Source: a phage
DNA length: 64,000 nucleotides
Reading direction: 5' to 3' (one strand)
Sequence record: PX104378.1
The position numbers were made by a program, and so were the translations under genes. Below are positions 1,859 to 52,537 of this stretch, piece after piece (position 1 is the first letter of the stretch; every line of letters starts with the position of its first letter). The notes beneath the pieces are model-generated. The model was not told where the DNA came from. It saw nothing but the letters and a program-made list of their open reading frames with translations, and made no database searches.

Positions 1859-3853
1859 ATGACTCTATTATCACCGGGTTTCGAAACGAAAGAAACTACT
1901 CTCTCCACTACCATTGTGCAATCTGCGACTGGTCGCGCGGCGCTGGTAGGTAAATTCCAATGGGGTCCAGCTTTCCAGATTATTCAAGTAACTAATGAAG
2001 TTGAGTTAGTTAATAAATTTGGTCAGCCGGATAATAACACCGCAGACTATTTCATGAGCGGGGCTAACTTCCTCCAGTACGGTAATGATCTGCGTGTTGT
2101 TCGTGTATTGAATAAAGAAAAAGCAAAAAACGCAACTACCCTAGCTGGCAACGTAGAGTTTGAAATCACAAACGAAGGTTCAAACTATAAGGTTGGCGAT
2201 ACAATTAAAGTAAAATACAAAAATTCTGAAATTGAAACTGGCGGAAAGATTACAAAAATTTCGTCGGAAGGTAAGATCAAAGGTATTTTTATTCCAACTG
2301 GTAAACTGATTGCACATGCAAAAACAATCGGGGCATATCCAAAACTGGAAGGATACACCGTAGAAATCATTTCTGATAGCGGTAACTCAGGTGCATCGAT
2401 CACTGTATCTGGAATTGTAGTCGACTCCGGTCTTCTGTTAACTGACATGGAAACTTCCCGCGCCAATATAACGAATCAAACTTTCTTGACTAAACTCAAG
2501 AAGTATGATATGCCAGCTGTAAGCGCGATCTATGCTGGTGAGATTGGCAACTCGCTGGAAGTTGAAATTCTGTCGCGTAGTGCGTTTAAGAACACAGCAC
2601 CGGATCTGACCATGTATCCTTATGGTGGCGAGCGCACCGCAGCACGCAACCTGATTCCATATGCACCGCAGAATGATAATCAATATGCGTTCATTGTTCG
2701 TCGCGATGGTGTTGTGGTAGAATCCTATGTATTGTCCACTCTGAAAGGAGATAAAGACGTCTACGGCAATTCTATCTATATGGACGACTTCTTTTCTCGT
2801 GGTGCTAGCCAGTACATCTATGCAACCGCTCAGGGGTGGGTAGATGGCTTCAGTGGCATTATTTCTCTTGCTGGCGGTGTTTCTGCCAACGAAGCAACCG
2901 CTGGTGTTGGTGCTGACCCGTTTGTTAGTGCGATGATGCAAGGCTGGGATCTGTTTGCTGAACGTGAATCTATTCATGTAAACCTTCTGATTGCTGGTGC
3001 ATGTGCTGGTGAAGGTGATGCATTCTCTACCGTACAGAAACATGCTGTTTCTATCGGTGATGAGCGTCAGGATTGCTTAGTAATGGTTTCTCCGCCGCGT
3101 AGCACTGTTGTTAATATTCCGGTGACTACTGCAATTGATAACCTGATTGCATGGCGCGAAGGTTCGGGAAACTATAATGAAAACAACATGAACATTAATA
3201 CCACTTACGCGGTTATTGATGGTAACTACAAGTATCAGTATGACAAATATAACGATGTAAACCGTTGGGTTCCGTTGGCTGCTGATATTGCTGGCTTGTG
3301 TGCTCGTACTGATGCTGTATCCCAGCCGTGGATGAGTCCGGCAGGTTATAACCGTGGTCAGATCATGAACGTGGTTAAACTGGCTATCGAGCCTCGCAAG
3401 GCACACCGTGATCGTCTGTATCAGGCCGCAATTAACCCGGTAATCGGTGCTGGTGGTGAAGGGTTTATCCTGATGGGTGATAAAACCGCTACGACTGTTC
3501 CTAGCCCGTTTGACCGCATTAACGTTCGTCGTCTGTTTAACATGCTGAAAAAGAATATCGGCGATTCAAGCAAATACAAACTGTTTGAAAACAATGATAA
3601 CTTTACTCGCGCTTCCTTCCGTATGGAGGTTTCGCAATATCTCAGCACGATTCGCTCTCTGGGTGGCATTTATGACTTCCGAGTACAATGCGACACCACG
3701 AACAACACGCCGGATGTAATTGATCGTAACGAATTTGTTGCTAGTATGTTCATCAAACCAGCAAAATCGATCAACTATATCATGCTCAATTTCACTGCTG
3801 TTGCAACTGGTGCTGATTTTGACGAAATTATCGGTCCAGCTAACCAGGCATAA
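1859..3853 (+). CDS. 18: Contractile tail sheath protein (gp18-like)
   Basis: 664 aa vs T4 gp18 659 aa; follows terminase as in T4; ATG with SD; TATAAATA upstream. Confidence 0.92.
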   Translation: MTLLSPGFETKETTLSTTIVQSATGRAALVGKFQWGPAFQIIQVTNEVELVNKFGQPDNNTADYFMSGANFLQYGNDLRVVRVLNKEKAKNATTLAGNVEFEITNEGSNYKVGDTIKVKYKNSEIETGGKITKISSEGKIKGIFIPTGKLIAHAKTIGAYPKLEGYTVEIISDSGNSGASITVSGIVVDSGLLLTDMETSRANITNQTFLTKLKKYDMPAVSAIYAGEIGNSLEVEILSRSAFKNTAPDLTMYPYGGERTAARNLIPYAPQNDNQYAFIVRRDGVVVESYVLSTLKGDKDVYGNSIYMDDFFSRGASQYIYATAQGWVDGFSGIISLAGGVSANEATAGVGADPFVSAMMQGWDLFAERESIHVNLLIAGACAGEGDAFSTVQKHAVSIGDERQDCLVMVSPPRSTVVNIPVTTAIDNLIAWREGSGNYNENNMNINTTYAVIDGNYKYQYDKYNDVNRWVPLAADIAGLCARTDAVSQPWMSPAGYNRGQIMNVVKLAIEPRKAHRDRLYQAAINPVIGAGGEGFILMGDKTATTVPSPFDRINVRRLFNMLKKNIGDSSKYKLFENNDNFTRASFRMEVSQYLSTIRSLGGIYDFRVQCDTTNNTPDVIDRNEFVASMFIKPAKSINYIMLNFTAVATGADFDEIIGPANQA

Positions 3854-3926
3854 TCAGTAAATTAGCATAGATTAAAAGTTAAATCAAGCGGGGAGAAAAT
3901 CCCCGCTCTATTAAGGAATATCAATT

Positions 3927-4421
3927 ATGGCACTCGATTTGAATGATATTACACGCGGTTTCGAGTCTGGCGATTTTGCTCGTCCTAACCTGTTTGAAGT
4001 TGAGATCCCATATCTGGGGCAAAACTTTAAGCTGATGTGTAAAGCGGCAACTGTCCCTGCTGCTACCGTAGAAAAAATCGCTGTAGGTTATCAAAACCGT
4101 AAAATTAACATCGCTGGCGACCGTGTATACGACGACTGGACCATCACTGTATTCAACGATGACGCACACAAGATCCGTGATGCTATCGTTGCATGGAGCG
4201 ATCAGACACATGGCACTGGTTCGGCGATCACGGGTGCAACTCCTGCACAATATAAGAAACAAGCTATTGTTCGTCAACTTAACCGTAACACCGAATCAAC
4301 TAGCGAAAAAACATTGTACGGTATTTTCCCGACCAACGTTGGTGAAGTAACCCTCGATTGGGAACAAAACAACGAAGTTGAAACGTTTGAAGTTACTTTT
4401 GCTATCGATTGGGTAGAATAA
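3927..4421 (+). CDS. 19: Tail tube protein (gp19-like)
   Basis: 164 aa, same size and position as T4 gp19. Confidence 0.9.
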   Translation: MALDLNDITRGFESGDFARPNLFEVEIPYLGQNFKLMCKAATVPAATVEKIAVGYQNRKINIAGDRVYDDWTITVFNDDAHKIRDAIVAWSDQTHGTGSAITGATPAQYKKQAIVRQLNRNTESTSEKTLYGIFPTNVGEVTLDWEQNNEVETFEVTFAIDWVE

Positions 4422-4479
4422 ATATATTATCATGCGGGGAGAAGTTCCCCGCTTAATTTCTCCCAATTCGAGGTGAATA

Positions 4480-6045
4480 ATGTTTAGTAGATTAAAAATG
4501 CTTGCGCGTTGGGCTGATTTTGACAACGACAAATACGAAGAACAAATTAAAGATAAAGCAGAGTCTATCGCCGCACCTAAAAACAATGATGGTGCTACGG
4601 AAGTAGAAATTAATGATAACTCTCCGGCTAGCGCGTGGAACTCTCTTACCCAGCAATTTTACAGCACCGACCAGAAAATCAGTACAACTAAGCAATTGGT
4701 TAACACATATCGCGGTTTGATGAATAACCATGAAGTCGAAAACGCTGTACAAAATATCGTTAACGATGCGATTGTATTTGAAGAAGGTCATGACGTTGTT
4801 TCATTAAATCTTGAGGCGACTGGCTTTAGTGAATCTGTAAAAGAGCGCATTCATGAAGAATTTAAAGATCTTTTAAACACTATCCAGTTTGATAAGCGTG
4901 GTCAGGATATGTTCCGTCGCTGGTATGTCGATTCGCGTATTTTCTTCCATAAGATCATCGGTAAAAATCCAAAAGATGGTATCGTAGAATTACGCCAGCT
5001 TGATCCACGAAATCTTGAATATGTTCGCGAGATCATTACAGAAGACACACCGGAAGGTAAAATTTATAAAGCAACGAAAGAATATTTCATTTACACTGTA
5101 GGTAATAGCTCTTATTGCGCAGGTGGTCAAGTATTCTCTCCCAATAGTCGCGTTAAAATCCCGCGTAGTGCTATTACATACGCTCACAGCGGCTTGATGG
5201 ATTGTGATGATAAATATATCATTGGTTATTTGCATCGGGCGGTTAAGCCAGCAAACCAGCTTAAATTGTTGGAAGACGCAATGGTCGTTTATCGTATCAC
5301 GCGTGCACCGGAACGCCGAGTGTTCTTTATTGATACCGGAAACATGAACAACCGCAAGGCTGCACAGCACATGAACTCAGTGGCACAGTCTTTTAAAAAT
5401 CGCGTTGTTTATGATGCATCTACTGGTAAACTTAAAAACCAGCAAGCAAACCTATCAATGACAGAGGACTACTGGTTACAACGTCGAGATGGTAAAGCAA
5501 TCACCGACGTTACTACTTTACCGGGTGCATCCGGTATGAGTGATATCGATGATATTCGCTACTTTAACCGTAAATTATATGAAGCGTTGCGTGTACCATT
5601 GTCACGTAGCAATCTCTCCGATGCTAATATGGTGATCGGTGGTGACGGTTCAGAAATTACTCGCGATGAGTTGGAATTTTCGAAATTCATTAGAACTCTG
5701 CAATCACAGTTTTCGGAAGTATTGCGCGATCCGCTTAAATATAATCTGATTCTCAAAAATGTAATTACGGAAGACGATTGGGATCGTGAAATAAATAATA
5801 TCAAGGTGGTTTTCCATCGGGACTCTTATTATACAGAAGTTAAAGACGCGGAAATTTTAGAACGTCGAATCGGTCTAATCGAACGTATCGCCCCTTACAT
5901 TGGTAAGTATTTCTCTAACCAGACAGTGATGCGTGACATTCTGAAATATACCGATGACCAGATGGACACCGAGAAGAAACAGATCGAAGAAGAAGCGAAC
6001 GATCCGCGCTTTAAACAAACTCCCGATGAAATAGAGGATTTTTAA
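4480..6045 (+). CDS. 20: Portal vertex protein (gp20-like)
   Basis: 521 aa vs T4 gp20 524 aa; SD GAGGTG before ATG. Confidence 0.92.
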   Translation: MFSRLKMLARWADFDNDKYEEQIKDKAESIAAPKNNDGATEVEINDNSPASAWNSLTQQFYSTDQKISTTKQLVNTYRGLMNNHEVENAVQNIVNDAIVFEEGHDVVSLNLEATGFSESVKERIHEEFKDLLNTIQFDKRGQDMFRRWYVDSRIFFHKIIGKNPKDGIVELRQLDPRNLEYVREIITEDTPEGKIYKATKEYFIYTVGNSSYCAGGQVFSPNSRVKIPRSAITYAHSGLMDCDDKYIIGYLHRAVKPANQLKLLEDAMVVYRITRAPERRVFFIDTGNMNNRKAAQHMNSVAQSFKNRVVYDASTGKLKNQQANLSMTEDYWLQRRDGKAITDVTTLPGASGMSDIDDIRYFNRKLYEALRVPLSRSNLSDANMVIGGDGSEITRDELEFSKFIRTLQSQFSEVLRDPLKYNLILKNVITEDDWDREINNIKVVFHRDSYYTEVKDAEILERRIGLIERIAPYIGKYFSNQTVMRDILKYTDDQMDTEKKQIEEEANDPRFKQTPDEIEDF

Positions 6046-32479: not shown

Positions 32480-34531
32480 TTACATTTTAAATTTATCTGG
32501 CATTGCGTCTACAGATACCAGATCAGCGATAAGCTGACGTAGAGTTGCCTTATCTGCTTTCTTACGTTCGGTTTTAGCTTCGGTAATAAAGCTGGAGAAA
32601 GACAGGTCAGAAGCAGGTTTAACAACACCTTCACGGATGAATGCATCACCGTCCGCGATCATCTCGCCAGATTCTTGTAATGCTGCCAGTTCATTTTTGT
32701 TCATAATATGTGCCTCAATGTAATAAGTTTCTTGTGAATCCGTCGATGCCGTAGCACGAGTTACCGTATCAAAGGATAACACAACACCGCGAGGAAGTAA
32801 AATCTCGCATTCTTTGTAAGCAAATGCTTTGTTACCTACTGGCAATACGGGGATGTTTTCCGCGCCAGCAATGGAGAAAGCAACATTAGCGCCACCTTCA
32901 CCGCGAGATCCAGCCATAGAATCTACACCAGCAACGGCACTAGCCACGTTTGCATTCCAGCCGCCAAAAATGTTAGGTGCAAGGGAAGTGCTCACATAGT
33001 TTTTAAAGTAAAACGCTTTTTGCTTACGTGCAGTTTCCCACATTTGCGACCGGAAGTCCATACCACGATACAGAATAGTACCAGGATCAAGTTTAACGCC
33101 ATAGTTGGAGAAGGCATTATCCAGTGCATCGCACATCTTGACCAATTCTTCTGGATCTGCGATGCCTTCAAACTCTTCCAGCTTACGGTCGGTTAGGAAG
33201 TTGTTCATATTGATGTATGCTGCATCGGCATATTCGCTCAACACAAAACCTTCCGCGCCCGGCAGATCAAGATCAATATCTGCCATCATTTCACCCATGT
33301 TGCTAGCAATTGCTTCAAACATACCGGAAGCAACATTACGTAGGGCATCGGTTTTAATCTGTGTGATGTGACTACGCAGCATTTCAGCTTTTACATCTGC
33401 TGGCATAGACTGGTCTACTCGATCCATTGCCAGGGCGGTGATCTTGTTTTCGAATACTTCCTCGCTCATGATTTCTTTTAAGCGTTTGATTGATGCTGCG
33501 ATAACTTCCGCAGACAACGGATCATATTGATCCTGAACTTTTACCAGTTCGCTTACTGCATATTTTGCATCGGCTTCGCTTTCAAAAATAGTACGCATGA
33601 AACCATAGCGAGTGATAATATCACTTGTCCAGTCATTCAGAGAACGAGCGGTTGAACGTTCTAAGGCTTGACGATCAATCAGAGTATTAAACTGTTTCTT
33701 AGGTTCGGCTTCGGTGATATCTTCTTCTGGTTTAAGATTAATTTTTTCTGGATGATTCACGTAGTCGCTGTTATATGTCGCTTGAGTTTTCAGCATTTCT
33801 TCTTTAGTCAAACGAGATTTAGCCGCTACGCGTTGTTCCGCTTCCGCGTTTCGTTCTTCTTCTGACACAAGACTAGCCGCATACGCCTCATCTTTAGTCA
33901 GAGATTCACCAGTAGCCTTAGATACCCAGCGATCACCTAAATCACTTTCTACTTTAGTGAACAAGGATTCATCAAGTTTAATCCCTTTAATCTTATCAAT
34001 CGCCATCCCGCGACGCTTGACAACAACTAAAGCGATCTTTTTGCTGGTCATTACTTCCTGCTGGAATACTTCAAACTTCGGTGTACGACGCACCAAACGC
34101 TCTATAACGCGCTTAACCAGTTCGGTCTTACCTTTCATGCGGGATACGTTAAAACGGAACATAACAGCGTCTAATTGCGCTTTACGGGCTGTTTCCATAA
34201 CCACATCAAAAGCACTTGCCATAACTGCAATCGGGTTATCGCCTAGACCATTTTTAAGCTGTACAATACGACCGCTTTTGTTCATTTCGCACAGTACAAC
34301 ATGTGCGGTCTTGTCACCCATACGAATGATTTTAGGTGTTTTGTTGGTGAAGTTACAAAGACGGACAATCACATCTTTATCGCGTGTCTGTACTGCAAAA
34401 AGCTGTTTAGGATTCTGCTTAGGCTTTAAGCACTGTACCGGAGCAATACTGCCAAAGTTTTCTTCCTCTTCCGTCAACAGCCATTTCTCGAAAGATTCAA
34501 TCATTAGATCGTCGATTTCTAAGTTAAACAT
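32480..34531 (-). CDS. alt: ADP-ribosyltransferase Alt
   Basis: 683 aa vs T4 Alt 682 aa; position after gp54; R-S-E motifs YRGM, YVSTS, ECEILLPRG. Confidence 0.88.
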   Translation of the reverse strand: MFNLEIDDLMIESFEKWLLTEEEENFGSIAPVQCLKPKQNPKQLFAVQTRDKDVIVRLCNFTNKTPKIIRMGDKTAHVVLCEMNKSGRIVQLKNGLGDNPIAVMASAFDVVMETARKAQLDAVMFRFNVSRMKGKTELVKRVIERLVRRTPKFEVFQQEVMTSKKIALVVVKRRGMAIDKIKGIKLDESLFTKVESDLGDRWVSKATGESLTKDEAYAASLVSEEERNAEAEQRVAAKSRLTKEEMLKTQATYNSDYVNHPEKINLKPEEDITEAEPKKQFNTLIDRQALERSTARSLNDWTSDIITRYGFMRTIFESEADAKYAVSELVKVQDQYDPLSAEVIAASIKRLKEIMSEEVFENKITALAMDRVDQSMPADVKAEMLRSHITQIKTDALRNVASGMFEAIASNMGEMMADIDLDLPGAEGFVLSEYADAAYINMNNFLTDRKLEEFEGIADPEELVKMCDALDNAFSNYGVKLDPGTILYRGMDFRSQMWETARKQKAFYFKNYVSTSLAPNIFGGWNANVASAVAGVDSMAGSRGEGGANVAFSIAGAENIPVLPVGNKAFAYKECEILLPRGVVLSFDTVTRATASTDSQETYYIEAHIMNKNELAALQESGEMIADGDAFIREGVVKPASDLSFSSFITEAKTERKKADKATLRQLIADLVSVDAMPDKFKM

Positions 34532-34810: not shown

Positions 34811-34846
34811 TTGATACTCCTTAGTAGTTCGTTTCGGTATGTGTGC

Positions 34847-34875
34847 ATTATAGGGGATCGATGATCCCCTGTCAA
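34847..34875 (-). promoter_or_regulatory. Early promoter cassette P1 (TTGACA-N17-TATAAT, GC palindrome in spacer)
   Basis: Minus strand TTGACAggggatcatcgatccccTATAAT then conserved leader gcacacataccgaaacgaa; drives 34598..34810. Confidence 0.6.
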
Positions 34876-34882
34876 CAACTTT

Positions 34883-35401
34883 TTAGTTATTTTTTAATTG
34901 CTCATCTTGCAATAAAGCAATCACATGCTGGCGATGTTCTTCCGATTGAGGCACACCGAAAAAGTTTGTTTTGTAGAAATACTCTAATCGGTCTTCTCGT
35001 GTGCTCTCTTCCATCATGATCGCGGGTAGTCCGAGATTTCGGAAACGTCGCTTTTCTGCTGGCGTAAAATCGCTGTAATACAGCATAGAATCATCATTAC
35101 CAGCAATGCTAAACTCATCCTTCATGAAGGAGAATATTGCGTTTAAACGCTGTTTACCGTCCACTATTTCGATTTCATAGCGAGAGCCATCATCAATCTT
35201 AGCCATTGCGATAGCACCAACCGGAAAATCATTAATCAGGTTTTCGATAAACATACGTTTGTTTTCGGTGTCCCATACCAAAGGACGCTGATAATCTGGG
35301 TTCATGTTGATATAGCCATCTTCTAACCACGCCTCATAAACAGAGATGACAAAGTTTTTAGTATTGGTATAGTAACGGCGTTTAGGAGTTAAACGGTTCA
35401 T
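34883..35401 (-). CDS. DUF262/ParB-like (GmrSD N-terminal domain-like) protein
   Basis: 172 aa; motifs PDYQRPLVWD and VDGKQRLNA (DGQQR-type); ATGA overlap with upstream ORF. Confidence 0.7.
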   Translation of the reverse strand: MNRLTPKRRYYTNTKNFVISVYEAWLEDGYINMNPDYQRPLVWDTENKRMFIENLINDFPVGAIAMAKIDDGSRYEIEIVDGKQRLNAIFSFMKDEFSIAGNDDSMLYYSDFTPAEKRRFRNLGLPAIMMEESTREDRLEYFYKTNFFGVPQSEEHRQHVIALLQDEQLKNN

Positions 35402-35577
35402 AGTGTGCTTACCTTTTCAATATATGCGTCCGCATACTGGCGAATGCTCATTTCTTCTCGTACTGCTGCTACAAATTCTTTCATGGATTCAAACCATTTG
35501 TAGGTGTCGCGATACATGACCAACTCTTCCCAAGTAAGATCGCAAATCTCTTTACCGTGTAGTTGTGGTGTTATCAT
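35398..35577 (-). CDS. Small hypothetical protein (59 aa), not in ORF table
   Basis: ATG overlaps stop of zinc-ribbon gene (ATGA) and its stop overlaps ATG of DUF262 gene; translation MITPQLHGKEICDLTWEELVMYRDTYKWFESMKEFVAAVREEMSIRQYADAYIEKVSTL. Confidence 0.5.
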   Translation of the reverse strand: MITPQLHGKEICDLTWEELVMYRDTYKWFESMKEFVAAVREEMSIRQYADAYIEKVSTL

Positions 35578-35912
35578 AATATAGTTCTCCTGAATGGATC
35601 ATCACGTAAATCAATATCTTTTAAGAACTCATCCCATGAATAGCGGATATTGTTCTTAATTCTCCAGATAAGCGCAGGGATTGAACGCTCTCCCATCTGG
35701 AAGTATGGATCGTATGATCCGTATGCCCAATATGCTACTACAATTCCACAATCAGCGCAATAGTATTCTATTTCACTTGCTGGCGACAAAAGTCCATCAA
35801 TATGATCAGTGATCTTGCTTTCGATGTTATGGCTATGACAATCAGGGCAACGGATGCAATGACCTTGTTTATCGTAATTTGACGTTAGCGAATACTTAAA
35901 CAATCTCATCAT
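35574..35912 (-). CDS. Zinc-ribbon protein
   Basis: 112 aa; CIRCPDCHSH ... YYCADCG; ATGA overlap with upstream methyltransferase-like gene. Confidence 0.65.
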   Translation of the reverse strand: MMRLFKYSLTSNYDKQGHCIRCPDCHSHNIESKITDHIDGLLSPASEIEYYCADCGIVVAYWAYGSYDPYFQMGERSIPALIWRIKNNIRYSWDEFLKDIDLRDDPFRRTIL

Positions 35913-36625
35913 AGATCCTTATTGGCTTCAAATACTGCCTTTGCGAATCCTCGCGGGGTAAGTGACCTGATAGTCTTTGTTCTGGTTCCTTTCCCGCCTA
36001 GCTTAGAATGCTGTTTACTGTACCCTTTCTCAATCGGCAACGGTTTCTTTTCTGGCATTATAAAGCCTTGTCCGGTCCATAAGCAAGTCTTTTTCGGGTA
36101 CATATCACGGGCGGCAATATACTCAGGAAACGTAGGATGTATATCATCTTCCGGCAAATAACCGCCATATTCCCACGGGTGGAACATGTAATCAGGCTTA
36201 CGCCACATGCTAGAGATAACGCTTACAGGATTCTCTATCATGTAGGGAACTCCTAGCCATTCACCCAAATAAGCGGTTATTTTAGCTGCCCGTACATCAT
36301 GAACTTGAATTAATGGTCCTTGCTCTCGTTTCTTTCGTTCAAAGTGTGCAGCGCCACTAACAGCTAAATTGGTACACGGTGGGAATGCAAAGATAATATC
36401 CGGTTTCCCCCATTCAAGGTCCATTGCTCTTTCCAGCCAATTCAAATCAATCCATGTGTTTACATAGGTAATGTTTGGATGTTCAAATCGGGTATTATAT
36501 TTTTTGTATGTACCGTGGTCGCCGTCGTCAGCATTGAAGCAGATCACCTTATGACCTGCTTTAGCCCATTCTAGCCCCATTATCCCCGATCCGTCAAAGT
36601 TGCAGAATATTAATTTTTGTTTCAT
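35909..36625 (-). CDS. C5-pyrimidine methyltransferase-fold protein (Dcm-like catalytic core, no obvious target-recognition domain)
   Basis: 238 aa; motif I-like FDGSGIMG, motif IV-like FPPCTNLAVSG (Pro-Cys), ENV-like IENPV. Confidence 0.6.
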   Translation of the reverse strand: MKQKLIFCNFDGSGIMGLEWAKAGHKVICFNADDGDHGTYKKYNTRFEHPNITYVNTWIDLNWLERAMDLEWGKPDIIFAFPPCTNLAVSGAAHFERKKREQGPLIQVHDVRAAKITAYLGEWLGVPYMIENPVSVISSMWRKPDYMFHPWEYGGYLPEDDIHPTFPEYIAARDMYPKKTCLWTGQGFIMPEKKPLPIEKGYSKQHSKLGGKGTRTKTIRSLTPRGFAKAVFEANKDL

Positions 36626-36867
36626 ATACGCCCCTTTAACCCAACACAGATTTTAGAAGGTTCTTTACCGTGCCACATTAAGTAAAGTCCGTTAGTGCGG
36701 CCTTGTTTTGTATATGATTCTTTTCTAATCTTCTTATAGTGTCGTGCTTCCTCAACCGATTGTTTAGAATACCAATCATAAAGGAAGATGAACAAAGGCC
36801 AACCATTAGCGGCCTTAATGCAGTTATTAAGAAATTCCTTATTGCGTTTAATTAATTTTCTTTTCAC
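36622..36867 (-). CDS. Small basic hypothetical protein
   Basis: 81 aa ORF; apparent GTG start overlapping stop of upstream gene; start uncertain. Confidence 0.45.
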   Translation of the reverse strand: MKRKLIKRNKEFLNNCIKAANGWPLFIFLYDWYSKQSVEEARHYKKIRKESYTKQGRTNGLYLMWHGKEPSKICVGLKGRI

Positions 36868-37115
36868 GCTGCCCCCGTTGGTTTGATAGTAACAGAATCT
36901 AAAAGACCTTTGTTAGCCAGTTCGCGGCAAGTTTTCAGATCCGCAACTTCCCAGCCAGCCGCAATCAGGTTATCTATGAGGCTGTTAGCAACTTCCTCGC
37001 TCATGAAAGAGCACTGTTTGCCGATGGTGTAGCGTACACGCTGTAATTTCAGTTTACGGAAGCCTTTAACGTTCAGGTCTTTAGCGATTTTCTTTGCGGT
37101 TTCGATGTTAGCCAT
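36864..37115 (-). CDS. Small early protein
   Basis: 83 aa; ATG with SD downstream of promoter cassette. Confidence 0.6.
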   Translation of the reverse strand: MANIETAKKIAKDLNVKGFRKLKLQRVRYTIGKQCSFMSEEVANSLIDNLIAAGWEVADLKTCRELANKGLLDSVTIKPTGAA

Positions 37116-37155: not shown

Positions 37156-37184
37156 ATTGTAGGGGAGTTATCCTCCCCTGTCAA
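37156..37184 (-). promoter_or_regulatory. Early promoter cassette P2 (TTGACA-N17-TACAAT, palindromic spacer)
   Basis: Same architecture upstream of 36864..37115; coords +/-2. Confidence 0.55.
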
Positions 37185-37399: not shown

Positions 37400-37428
37400 A
37401 TTATAGGGGATCTCCCGATCCCCGTCAA
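37400..37428 (-). promoter_or_regulatory. Early promoter cassette P3 (TTGACG-N17-TATAAT, palindromic spacer)
   Basis: Upstream of 37199..37366; conserved leader. Confidence 0.55.
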
Positions 37429-40662: not shown

Positions 40663-40692
40663 ATTATAGGGGATCGGTGACCCCCCTGTCAA
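40663..40692 (-). promoter_or_regulatory. Early promoter cassette P8 (TTGACA-N18-TATAAT, GC-rich spacer)
   Basis: Upstream of 40461..40628; conserved leader. Confidence 0.55.
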
Positions 40693-52508: not shown

Positions 52509-52537
52509 ATTATAGCGGGGATTTCTCCCCGCGTCAA
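52509..52537 (-). promoter_or_regulatory. Promoter-like cassette P15 (TTGACG-N17-TATAAT, palindromic spacer) just after nrdA stop
   Basis: Upstream of 52310..52477; the hairpin may double as a post-nrdA structure. Confidence 0.45.

What the first reader, a model, noticed from the sequence alone, without database searches (positions are those of the whole stretch)
34883..37115. Translationally coupled six-gene early operon: C5-methyltransferase-fold protein, zinc-ribbon protein and DUF262/ParB-like protein
Six consecutive minus-strand genes (36864..37115, 36622..36867, 35909..36625, 35574..35912, 35398..35577, 34883..35401) are linked by ATGA/GTGA start-stop overlaps at every junction, behind one promoter cassette. 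The 238-aa protein has C5-methyltransferase motifs (FDGSGIMG, FPPCTNLAVSG with the catalytic Pro-Cys, IENPV) but no room for a normal target-recognition domain, and Thr replaces Gln of the canonical PCQ. The last gene has DUF262 motifs (PDYQRPLVWD, DGKQRLNA) and no attached DUF1524/HNH nuclease domain. One possibility is a DNA or nucleotide C5-modification module; another is a decoy or dominant-negative inhibitor of GmrSD-like type IV restriction.
Basis: partly seen in the sequence, partly recalled or inferred. Interest (0 to 1): 0.8.

Follow-up and report, generated by a model that had tools for sequence, protein, structure and literature searches.

The report
Krischvirus early operon: mini methyltransferase, DUF262
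This is a real, tightly coupled early gene cassette of an RB49-like coliphage that carries a very small cytosine-C5 methyltransferase-like enzyme and a nuclease-less DUF262 protein, but these genes travel separately in other phages and phages carrying the cassette have ordinary cytosine DNA, so it is an interesting yet largely ordinary accessory cassette and not a demonstrated DNA-modification machine.

Summary
Six minus-strand ORFs at 34883-37115 are joined by GTGA/ATGA 4-nt overlaps. This is the only run of such junctions in the window. The ORFs lie between two consensus sigma-70 promoter plus stem-loop cassettes, which are the published PeSL elements of RB49-type phages.

The window is a Krischvirus, 97-98% identical to kaaroe, GEC-3S and RB49.

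The 172-aa protein is a complete DUF262 (GmrS/ParB-like) core with no nuclease. It is under strong purifying selection.

The 'module' reading is weak. In 78 other phage loci the methyltransferase never sits near a DUF262 or this zinc-ribbon gene, and DUF262-only genes in RB43 and Slopekvirus phages have no methyltransferase nearby. The 59-aa gene is an ORFan insertion seen in only two other phages. Published data show canonical cytosines in RB49 and TB34, which carry the operon.

Best reading: a mosaic PeSL accessory cassette with an orphan, sparse-site C5 methyltransferase. Biochemical function is untested.

The parts
37156..37184 (-). PeSL promoter cassette driving the operon (TTGACA-17-TACAAT with the GGGGAG...CTCCCC stem-loop in the spacer; AT-rich stretch upstream to about 37205)
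   Evidence: 11/12 match to sigma-70 consensus; stem-loop -19.4 kcal/mol, z -4.75; matches published PeSL elements (PMC2839356); annotated as a promoter in GEC-3S
36864..37115 (-). gene 1, 83 aa, unknown function (PHROG 14908)
   Evidence: ORF; PHROG 14908 at 2.5e-58; weak PADLOC hit to the RT_UG35 C-terminal region, 2.5e-5; dN/dS 0-0.29
36622..36867 (-). gene 2, 81 aa, GTG start, unknown function (PHROG 7065); missing in JSE-type Krischviruses
   Evidence: ORF and GTGA overlap; PHROG 7065 at 3.5e-37; absent from L003/L009 and from the 83%-coverage records
35909..36625 (-). gene 3, 238 aa, compact C5-cytosine DNA methyltransferase-fold protein (PHROG 757). Motif I F10-G14, Pro-Cys C84, ENP E131, motif IX R220; about 33-residue stand-in for a target-recognition domain (residues 186-218)
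35574..35912 (-). gene 4, 112 aa (109 aa in most Krischviruses), CxxC...CxxC zinc-ribbon protein, PHROG 2993
   Evidence: Pfam Zn_Ribbon_TF 1.1e-4, below cut-off; PHROG 2993 at 2e-33; homologs in Nonagvirus and Felixounavirus phages, none within 5 kb of the methyltransferase in the 78 methyltransferase-centred loci
35398..35577 (-). gene 5, 59 aa ORFan, an insertion present only in this window, kaaroe and FL04
   Evidence: No Pfam, PHROG, NCBIfam or PADLOC hit; tblastn finds 2 of 50,697 phage records; insertion borders share ACTAT..ATGA
34883..35401 (-). gene 6, 172 aa, stand-alone DUF262 (GmrS-like, ParB/Srx-fold) core with the YQRxxVW, DGKQR and NFxGVPQSEEH motifs; no nuclease domain
   Evidence: Pfam PF03235 at 4.1e-20, 73.2 bits against cut-off 33.2; PADLOC NsnA 1.1e-20 and PD-T4-2_A 4.9e-12; invariant motifs; Foldseek top hits Noc, ParB, DndI, BrxU; dN/dS 0.00-0.06
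34847..34875 (-). downstream PeSL cassette (TTGACA-17-TATAAT with the GGGGATC...GATCCCC stem-loop). It ends the operon and drives the next 70-aa gene
   Evidence: 12/12 consensus match; stem-loop -16.8 kcal/mol, z -4.76; PeSL stem-loops shown to terminate transcription (PMC2839356)

Best explanation
The locus is a PeSL-bounded accessory cassette in a hyperplastic region of a Krischvirus (RB49-like) genome, next to the alt gene. Host sigma-70 RNA polymerase transcribes it as one early mRNA, and the genes are translated by start/stop coupling. The cassette is a mosaic of independently mobile accessory genes, not a dedicated machine. Its largest gene encodes an orphan, ultra-compact DNA cytosine-C5 methyltransferase of a very large phage-only family. 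The catalytic core is intact (SAM pocket, Pro-Cys nucleophile, ENP glutamate), and a short DNMT3-like loop replaces the target-recognition domain. Most likely it methylates a sparse set of short sites on replicating phage DNA as protection against some host restriction enzymes. The last gene encodes a complete DUF262 nucleotide-binding core without an effector. It is strongly conserved and probably has its own, separate role, possibly interfering with or mimicking DUF262-containing host nucleases. Shown here: gene structure, coupling, promoter cassettes, folds, family sizes, lack of co-occurrence, purifying selection. Inferred: early timing, methyl-transfer activity, DNA as substrate, sparse sites, anti-restriction role, and any role of DUF262.
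Against: No member of this compact family has a demonstrated activity. Motif VIII (QxRxR) is replaced by Y-x-K-x-T. Pfam PF00145 is below threshold. Truncated phage C5-MT-like proteins with disrupted motifs VIII-X were inactive when tested (PMC8256090). The BASEL study found no link between such genes and restriction resistance (PMC8594841). No 5-methyl-dC was detected in TB34. The tight coupling of methyltransferase, zinc-ribbon and DUF262 genes in every Krischvirus could still reflect a lineage-specific partnership that comparison among near-identical genomes cannot reveal.
Confidence: 0.5

Rival explanations
1. Partner-dependent modifier. The methyltransferase, which lacks a target-recognition domain, is inactive on duplex DNA by itself. 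The DUF262 ParB-like nucleotide-binding protein and/or the zinc-ribbon protein load, activate or target it, so genes 3, 4 and 6 form one post-replicative cytosine-C5 modification machine.
For: The three genes are contiguous and translationally coupled in all Krischviruses examined. The enzyme has only about 33 residues where the target-recognition domain should be. A phage ParB nucleotide-binding protein lacking a DNA-binding domain activates a T-dioxygenase specifically on dsDNA (PMC13229309). Two family members carry an N-terminal CxxC...CxxC extension (P0195, P0234), and a Cys-rich small protein lies two genes upstream in Dhillonvirus-type loci.
Against: No DUF262 ORF and no homolog of the 112-aa protein occurs within 5 kb of the methyltransferase in 78 other lineages. 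No ParB family hit appears among the recurrent neighbours scanned. DUF262-only genes occur without the methyltransferase in many T4-type phages. The fused zinc ribbons are not homologous to the 112-aa protein. TB34 and RB49 DNA is unmodified in bulk.
Confidence: 0.12
2. Decoy. The stand-alone DUF262 protein is an anti-defence factor that pairs with or mimics the DUF262 domain of host nucleases (GmrSD/BrxU, SspE-like, PD-T4-2, Nsn) and poisons them. It may guard against type IV attack on DNA that the neighbouring methyltransferase has methylated.
For: It is a complete DUF262 core with all three motifs and no effector domain. Its closest defence-system profiles are NsnA and PD-T4-2_A. A DUF262-only GmrS1 works together with GmrSD2, so such domains can pair between proteins (PMC12373910). 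It is expressed early from a sigma-70 promoter. dN/dS is 0.00-0.06. BrxU cuts 5-methyl-dC DNA.
Against: The nucleotide-binding motifs are invariant, which a passive decoy would not need. The family is found in RB43-like, Slopekvirus and related phages and is absent from Tequatrovirus and Mosigvirus, the GmrSD targets. Purified TB34 DNA is not cut by BrxU in vitro, so there is no methylation to protect. No experiment bears on it.
Confidence: 0.15
3. The 238-aa protein is not a DNA methyltransferase in practice. It either acts on another substrate (for example tRNA or rRNA cytosine, as DNMT2 does, or host DNA only) or is a catalytically idle SAM- or DNA-binding protein.
Against: Cys84, Glu131 and the SAM-pocket residues are conserved across a family of more than 1,000 clusters. 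The best structural matches are DNA enzymes, not RNA enzymes. The gene sits among DNA replication genes and next to Dam in other phages.
Confidence: 0.2
4. Bulk C5 hypermodification module acting on all cytosines or on nucleotides. It might underlie the 5-hmdC and glycosylated cytosines reported for Krischvirus SAP.
For: It is the only C5-pyrimidine-modifying fold found here in a genus said to lack hmC synthase. SAP is reported as fully modified, with no known pathway.
Against: The operon coding sequences of SAP and unmodified TB34 are identical. RB49 is cut by HpaII and NheI. The authors found no hmC/hoC synthase homolog or DNA glucosyltransferase in Krischvirus. SAP's modification profile equals that of co-isolated Tequatroviruses, which suggests to me a mixed stock.
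Confidence: 0.03

Closest known systems
PeSL (promoter-early stem-loop) ORFan cassettes of RB49/phi1 hyperplastic regions (Arbiol et al. 2010, PMC2839356; Comeau et al. 2014, PMC4122927)
   Same: Consensus sigma-70 promoter with an AT-rich upstream stretch and a G-run/C-run stem-loop. They flank non-essential genes of unknown function in a hyperplastic region. Neighbouring cassettes differ between closely related phages by insertion and deletion.
   Different: Most described PeSL cassettes carry a single ORFan. This one carries five or six coupled genes. The 59-aa insertion inside it is not PeSL-flanked: it sits at a coupling junction with ACTAT..ATGA at both borders.
DNA cytosine-C5 methyltransferases (PF00145: M.HhaI, M.HaeIII, DNMT3A/B catalytic domain)
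   Different: 238 aa against 291 for the DNMT3B catalytic-domain chain and 327 for M.HhaI (chain lengths). About 33 residues lie between motifs VIII and IX. Motif VIII is Y-x-K-x-T instead of QxRxR. Pfam score is below the gathering cut-off. No activity or recognition site is known for any family member.
Phage C5-MTs that feed TET/5mYOX hypermodification pathways (Burke et al. 2021, PMC8256090) and the C5-carboxymethyltransferase CmoX (PDB 8yf3; PMC12783734)
   Different: The authors report no hmC/hoC synthase homolog or DNA glucosyltransferase in Krischvirus. I did not scan the genome for a TET/5mYOX gene. The operon's hosts have canonical cytosine. I did not test relatedness to the clades of that paper.
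GmrSD / BrxU type IV restriction enzymes and split GmrS-GmrD or GmrS1-GmrSD2 systems
   Same: The N-terminal DUF262 domain with the YQRxxxW, DGxQR and FxxxN motifs is present and scores well above the Pfam cut-off. A DUF262-only partner protein (GmrS1) is a known arrangement (PMC12373910).
   Different: There is no DUF1524/HNH nuclease in the protein or in the operon. It is encoded by a lytic phage, not a host island. At 172 aa it is about the bare domain.
ParB nucleotide-binding-domain activators of phage T-dioxygenases (O'Toole et al. 2026, PMC13229309)
   Same: A small ParB/Srx-fold nucleotide-binding protein without a DNA-binding domain, encoded beside a post-replicative DNA base-modifying enzyme in a phage.
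   Different: Those are PF02195 ParB proteins with a C-terminal dimerisation domain, and they co-occur with their enzyme across lineages. Here the domain is DUF262 (PF03235), and the pairing with the methyltransferase is confined to one genus.

Membership tests
DNA cytosine-C5 methyltransferase (PF00145 type) | Class I SAM-methyltransferase fold whose nearest structural relatives are C5-DNA methyltransferases | tested here: met
DNA cytosine-C5 methyltransferase (PF00145 type) | Motif IV Pro-Cys nucleophile and motif VI ENV glutamate | tested here: met
   PPC at residues 82-84 and ENP at 131-133. C84 is conserved in 96%, E131 in 100% and P133 in 99% of 115 diverse family representatives.
DNA cytosine-C5 methyltransferase (PF00145 type) | Motif I FxGxG and an acidic residue at the end of strand 2 for SAM binding | tested here: inconclusive
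   FDGSG is present here. In the wider family the first Gly is usually Y, R, H or F. Position 31 is Asp in 106 of 115 members but Asn in this subclade, with Asp33/34/36 nearby.
DNA cytosine-C5 methyltransferase (PF00145 type) | Motif VIII QxRxR | tested here: not met
   The position reads Y176-P-K178-K-T180. K178 is 97% and T180 is 95% conserved. The canonical motif is recalled from knowledge of M.HhaI.
DNA cytosine-C5 methyltransferase (PF00145 type) | Target-recognition domain between motifs VIII and IX | tested here: not met
   Only residues 186-218 (about 33 aa, pLDDT 72-78) separate strand 180-185 from the R220-S-L-T-P-R motif.
DNA cytosine-C5 methyltransferase (PF00145 type) | Sequence score above the curated family threshold | tested here: not met
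   PF00145 scores 13.4 bits against a cut-off of 22, covering residues 10-100 only. NCBIfam gives no hit. A family profile against PDB gives HaeIII E 0.43. PHROG 757 'DNA methyltransferase' gives 1e-90.
DNA cytosine-C5 methyltransferase (PF00145 type) | Transfers a methyl group to C5 of cytosine in DNA | not testable with these tools
   Indirect evidence only. TB34, which carries the gene, shows no modified nucleoside and is not cut by BrxU. RB49 is cut by HpaII and NheI.
[quoted passage not shown] | N-terminal DUF262 (PF03235) domain with the conserved motifs | tested here: met
   73.2 bits against cut-off 33.2. Y37-Q-R, D81-G-K-Q-R and N146..G-V-P-Q-S-E-E-H are invariant in seven homologs.
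[quoted passage not shown] | C-terminal DUF1524/HNH nuclease domain, fused or encoded alongside | tested here: not met
   The protein ends at residue 172. No nuclease family hit appears in any of the six proteins.
ParB/Srx-fold nucleotide-binding domain | Structural similarity to ParB-type CTPase N-terminal domains | tested here: inconclusive
   The model has mean pLDDT 71, with most core blocks at 71-93. Foldseek top hits are Noc, ParB, DndI, KorB, PadC and BrxU, but with weak E-values (4e-3 to 0.1) and TM about 0.4.
PeSL regulatory cassette (RB49/phi1) | Consensus sigma-70 promoter plus stable G/C-run stem-loop and AT-rich upstream stretch, flanking accessory genes in a hyperplastic region | tested here: met
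   The description is in PMC2839356. The same sites are annotated as promoters in GEC-3S.
Enzyme plus ParB-like activator pair (as for ParB-dependent 5mYOX) | The two genes co-occur across independent lineages | tested here: not met
   None of 78 non-Krischvirus methyltransferase loci has a DUF262 ORF within 5 kb (HMM; tblastn). None of 7 DUF262-only loci outside Krischvirus has the methyltransferase.

The most novel reading that the evidence does not exclude
The compact methyltransferase lacks a target-recognition domain because recognition or loading on duplex DNA is supplied in trans. In this reading the zinc-ribbon protein and the DUF262 ParB-like nucleotide-binding protein are its targeting and activation subunits, making a three-part, nucleotide-gated cytosine-C5 modifier. 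That would be a new kind of DNA methyltransferase organisation, parallel to the ParB-dependent phage T-dioxygenases. A conditional on/off state of such a system could relate to the unexplained difference between Krischvirus SAP (modified) and TB34 (unmodified).
Probability: 0.07. Interest if true: 0.75.

Novelty: new member of a known kind. Interest (0 to 1): 0.38.

Why it matters
The operon itself is an ordinary PeSL accessory cassette, and public records already label its main genes. Two open questions remain.

First, the 238-aa protein represents a family of more than 7,000 database proteins, found in about 3% of sequenced phage genomes. These are the smallest C5-methyltransferase-like proteins I am aware of, and none has a known activity or site. 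One expression and EM-seq experiment would show whether a roughly 33-residue loop is enough for sequence recognition, and whether these genes explain any restriction resistance.

Second, effector-less DUF262 proteins are strongly conserved in RB43-like, Slopekvirus and related T4-type phages and absent from the hmC-type genera. Their role is unknown and easy to test: anti-defence, exclusion of other phages, or a nucleotide-gated DNA factor.

Tried and rejected
- A single-sequence scan of viral contigs found only two near-identical loci. An alignment-based scan was needed.
- phmmer against PDB gave nothing for the 238-aa protein and only spurious sliding-clamp hits for the 172-aa protein. NCBIfam gave no useful hit.
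- I looked for a conserved module by tblastn, phmmer and a custom DUF262 HMM over 93 fetched loci and found none outside Krischvirus. Pfam scans of 17 recurrent neighbours of the methyltransferase found helicase, Dam, DUF3987 primase and DUFs, but no ParB or DUF262.
- I tested whether the 109-aa gene upstream of DUF262 in Lw1 and Slopekvirus is the zinc-ribbon homolog. It is not.
- I tested whether the 304-319-aa protein coupled to DUF262 in those phages exists in this window. It does not, and it has no Pfam family.
- I tested whether the extra 59-aa gene downstream in GEC-3S is the window's 59-aa gene moved elsewhere. It is not.
- I tested whether differences between SAP and TB34 fall in the operon. 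The coding sequences are identical. SAP has a 79-nt PeSL duplication downstream and two 1-nt indels upstream.
- The apparent 900-nt 'insertions' in kaaroe, ELT3 and FL37 in the BLAST tables are joined PeSL repeats, not operon insertions.
- Literature searches found no experimental characterisation of this compact methyltransferase family or of phage DUF262-only proteins.
Full report
**Origin and observation.** The window is a Krischvirus, an RB49-like T4-type coliphage. The region is 97-98% identical to phages kaaroe, FL04, GEC-3S, ECD7, RB49 and about 55 others. All six minus-strand ORFs exist as described, and every junction is a 4-nt start/stop overlap: one GTGA and four ATGA. A crude gene call over the 64-kb window gives 76 same-strand junctions. 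Ten are 4-nt overlaps. Five of those form this run and the rest are isolated, so the coupling is real and unusual even for this genome. A near-consensus sigma-70 promoter with a GC stem-loop in its spacer lies upstream (37184-37156), and a perfect one follows the last stop codon (34875-34847). The stem-loops fold at -19.4 and -16.8 kcal/mol, z about -4.75, and promoter-like matches inside the operon are no more frequent than in shuffles. These are the published PeSL (promoter-early stem-loop) cassettes of RB49 and phi1. PeSLs act as early promoters and terminators and mediate shuffling of accessory genes in hyperplastic regions (PMC2839356; PMC4122927). The 683-aa neighbour is the Alt-like ADP-ribosyltransferase.

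**The operon is plastic.** Most Krischviruses have five genes. The 59-aa gene is missing, and the zinc-ribbon gene then ends one base before the DUF262 start. JSE-type phages also lack the 81-aa gene. The 59-aa gene is an ORFan found in only two of 50,697 phage records. Both of its insertion borders read ACTAT..ATGA. The window in turn lacks a PeSL-plus-59-aa-gene unit that sits downstream of the DUF262 gene in GEC-3S, TB34 and kaaroe. Within the genus all the genes are under purifying selection. The DUF262 gene is the most constrained (dN/dS 0.00-0.06, like Alt), followed by the 238-aa gene (about 0.10), the zinc-ribbon gene (0.09-0.24) and the 81-aa gene (0.16-0.59).

**The 238-aa protein.** Sequence methods barely see a methyltransferase. 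Pfam PF00145 scores 13.4 bits against a cut-off of 22 and covers residues 10-100 only. NCBIfam gives nothing. phmmer against PDB gives nothing. A family profile against PDB gives HaeIII at E 0.43 and DNMT3B at E 1.2, aligned over motifs I-IV. PHROG 757 'DNA methyltransferase' matches at 1e-90, and public records already call the gene DNA methyltransferase, Dcm or putative C-5 cytosine methylase.

The family is very large and uniformly small. It has 7,322 hits in the 90%-clustered database and 1,170 clusters at 50% identity. Members occur in 1,526 phage genomes, including Drexlerviridae, Dhillonvirus, Vequintavirinae and Klebsiella siphoviruses. Across 115 diverse members the Pro-Cys cysteine (96%), the ENP glutamate (100%) and proline (99%), K178, T180, W183 and R220 are conserved. 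Thr after Pro-Cys is the family norm (88%), and DNMT3B itself has PCN.

What departs from canonical enzymes: motif VIII is Y-x-K-x-T instead of QxRxR. Only about 33 residues (186-218) lie where the target-recognition domain should be. The glycine-rich motif I is FDGSG only in this subclade, while the wider family reads LFDYTG. Activity remains unproven.

**The 172-aa protein.** Pfam GmrSD_N (DUF262) matches at 4.1e-20, with 73 bits against a cut-off of 33. The nearest defence-system profiles are NsnA and PD-T4-2_A. Seven close homologs are all 161-176 aa, apart from one of 282 aa. They share invariant YQR..VW, DGKQR and NF.GVPQSEEH motifs, which are the three DUF262 signature motifs, so this is a complete nucleotide-binding core and nothing else. 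The model is moderate (pLDDT 71). Its best structural matches are ParB-family CTPases (Noc, ParB, KorB, PadC), DndI and BrxU, at weak scores. No nuclease domain is found in it or in any operon protein.

**Is it a module?** I fetched 78 loci from other phage lineages that encode a 52-65% identical homolog of the methyltransferase, with 5 kb on each side. None contains a homolog of any of the other five genes by tblastn, phmmer or a purpose-built DUF262 HMM. In those phages the methyltransferase sits in replication modules, next to an SNF2 helicase, DNA polymerase A, a DUF3987 primase or a Dam-type adenine methylase.

Conversely, full-length DUF262-only homologs (35-39% identity) occur in 268 other phage records. 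These are mainly RB43/Lw1, Slopekvirus, Enterobacter, Cronobacter and Citrobacter T4-type phages, plus a P22-like phage. They are not found in Tequatrovirus or Mosigvirus. There the gene is coupled to an unknown 304-319-aa protein, with no methyltransferase or zinc ribbon nearby. Homologs of the zinc-ribbon protein occur in Nonagvirus and Felixounavirus phages, and none lies within 5 kb of the methyltransferase in the 78 methyltransferase-centred loci. Each named gene thus has its own distribution. Their linkage is a Krischvirus-specific arrangement, and comparison among 97%-identical genomes cannot show it to be functional.

**What the DNA of these phages looks like.** RB49, which carries the operon, is cut by HpaII and NheI. 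Both enzymes are blocked by cytosine methylation, and RB49 is used as an unmodified-cytosine control (PMC4041780). TB34 also carries an intact five-gene operon. It shows no detectable modified nucleoside by HPLC/MS, is not restricted by BrxU in vivo, and its purified DNA is not cut by BrxU in vitro, although BrxU cuts 5-methyl-dC DNA (PMC13390438). This rules out bulk C5 modification and leaves at most sparse, site-specific methylation.

The same paper reports that phage SAP is 99.96% identical to TB34 yet carries 5-hmdC and glycosylated derivatives by an unknown route. I compared the two over this locus. The operon coding sequences are identical. SAP differs by a 79-nt PeSL duplication just downstream of the DUF262 stop codon and by two 1-nt indels upstream. 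The operon therefore does not explain that difference. SAP's modification profile equals that of Tequatroviruses isolated in the same collection. In my view, and this is inference only, that calls for excluding a mixed stock.

**Best explanation and rivals.** I commit to a mosaic PeSL accessory cassette expressed early, whose main enzyme is an orphan compact C5-DNA methyltransferase acting on sparse short sites, with an independently acting DUF262 core (confidence 0.5).

The main rivals are:
- a partner-dependent modifier (0.12), made more plausible by the 2026 finding that a ParB nucleotide-binding protein without a DNA-binding domain activates a phage T-dioxygenase on duplex DNA (PMC13229309);
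- a DUF262 decoy against host DUF262 nucleases (0.15; DUF262-only GmrS1 pairs with GmrSD2, PMC12373910);
- a protein that does not methylate DNA at all (0.2; truncated phage C5-MTs with disrupted motifs VIII-X were inactive, PMC8256090; the BASEL study found no link between such genes and restriction resistance, PMC8594841);
- a bulk hypermodification module (0.03).

**Verdict.** However, the promoter cassettes are published, the two key genes are already annotated in public records, the 'module' is not conserved, and phages that carry it have canonical DNA. Interest is moderate. It rests on two uncharacterised but very widespread protein families, not on the operon itself.

Noticed in passing
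window 35398-35577 (minus) and borders at about 35578-35590 and 35398-35410: The 59-aa ORFan is an insertion at the zinc-ribbon/DUF262 junction. It is present in only 2 of 50,697 phage records (kaaroe, FL04). Both borders read ACTAT..ATGA, which suggests recombination at the translational-coupling sequence and not at PeSLs.
   Followed up: partly
L090 (SAP) 532-611 against L089 (TB34) 532: SAP, reported to have modified cytosine, differs from TB34, which is unmodified, by a 79-nt tandem PeSL duplication immediately downstream of the DUF262 stop codon and by two 1-nt T indels in upstream intergenic PeSL regions. The operon coding sequences are identical.
   Followed up: partly
window 34811-34882, compared with L001 2612-2931: The window lacks a PeSL plus 59-aa gene (phi1p186-like) that lies between the DUF262 gene and the 70-aa gene in GEC-3S, TB34 and kaaroe. 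This is a PeSL-type deletion of one cassette.
   Followed up: partly
window 36864-37115 (minus): The 83-aa first gene gives a weak PADLOC match (2.5e-5) to positions 722-785 of the RT_UG35 (DRT) reverse-transcriptase profile. Significance is unknown.
   Followed up: no
proteins P0195 and P0234; L026 3008-3316: Two members of the compact methyltransferase family carry an N-terminal CxxC...CxxC zinc-ribbon extension. P0195 has also lost the Pro-Cys (it reads PEYM). A similar Cys-rich 102-aa protein lies two genes upstream of the methyltransferase in Dhillonvirus-type loci. This is a loose, non-homologous echo of the zinc-ribbon neighbour in Krischvirus.
   Followed up: partly
L091 (Lw1) 3474-4963; L092 (phT4A) 3480-4918: In Pseudotevenvirus and Slopekvirus the DUF262-only gene overlaps by 4 nt with a conserved 304-319-aa protein that has no Pfam family and no homolog in this window. 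It is a possible partner worth studying.
   Followed up: partly
window 32480-34531 (minus): A 683-aa Alt-like ADP-ribosyltransferase lies immediately downstream of the cassette region. Its dN/dS of about 0.02 served as the yardstick for constraint.
   Followed up: partly
window 37400-37428, 40663-40692, 52509-52537 (minus): Further PeSL-type cassettes (TTGAC-GGGG...CCCC-TATAAT) punctuate this hyperplastic region. A small 55-aa gene next to the operon is duplicated at 91% identity in ECD7 (L002 2002-2166 and 5260-5424).
   Followed up: no
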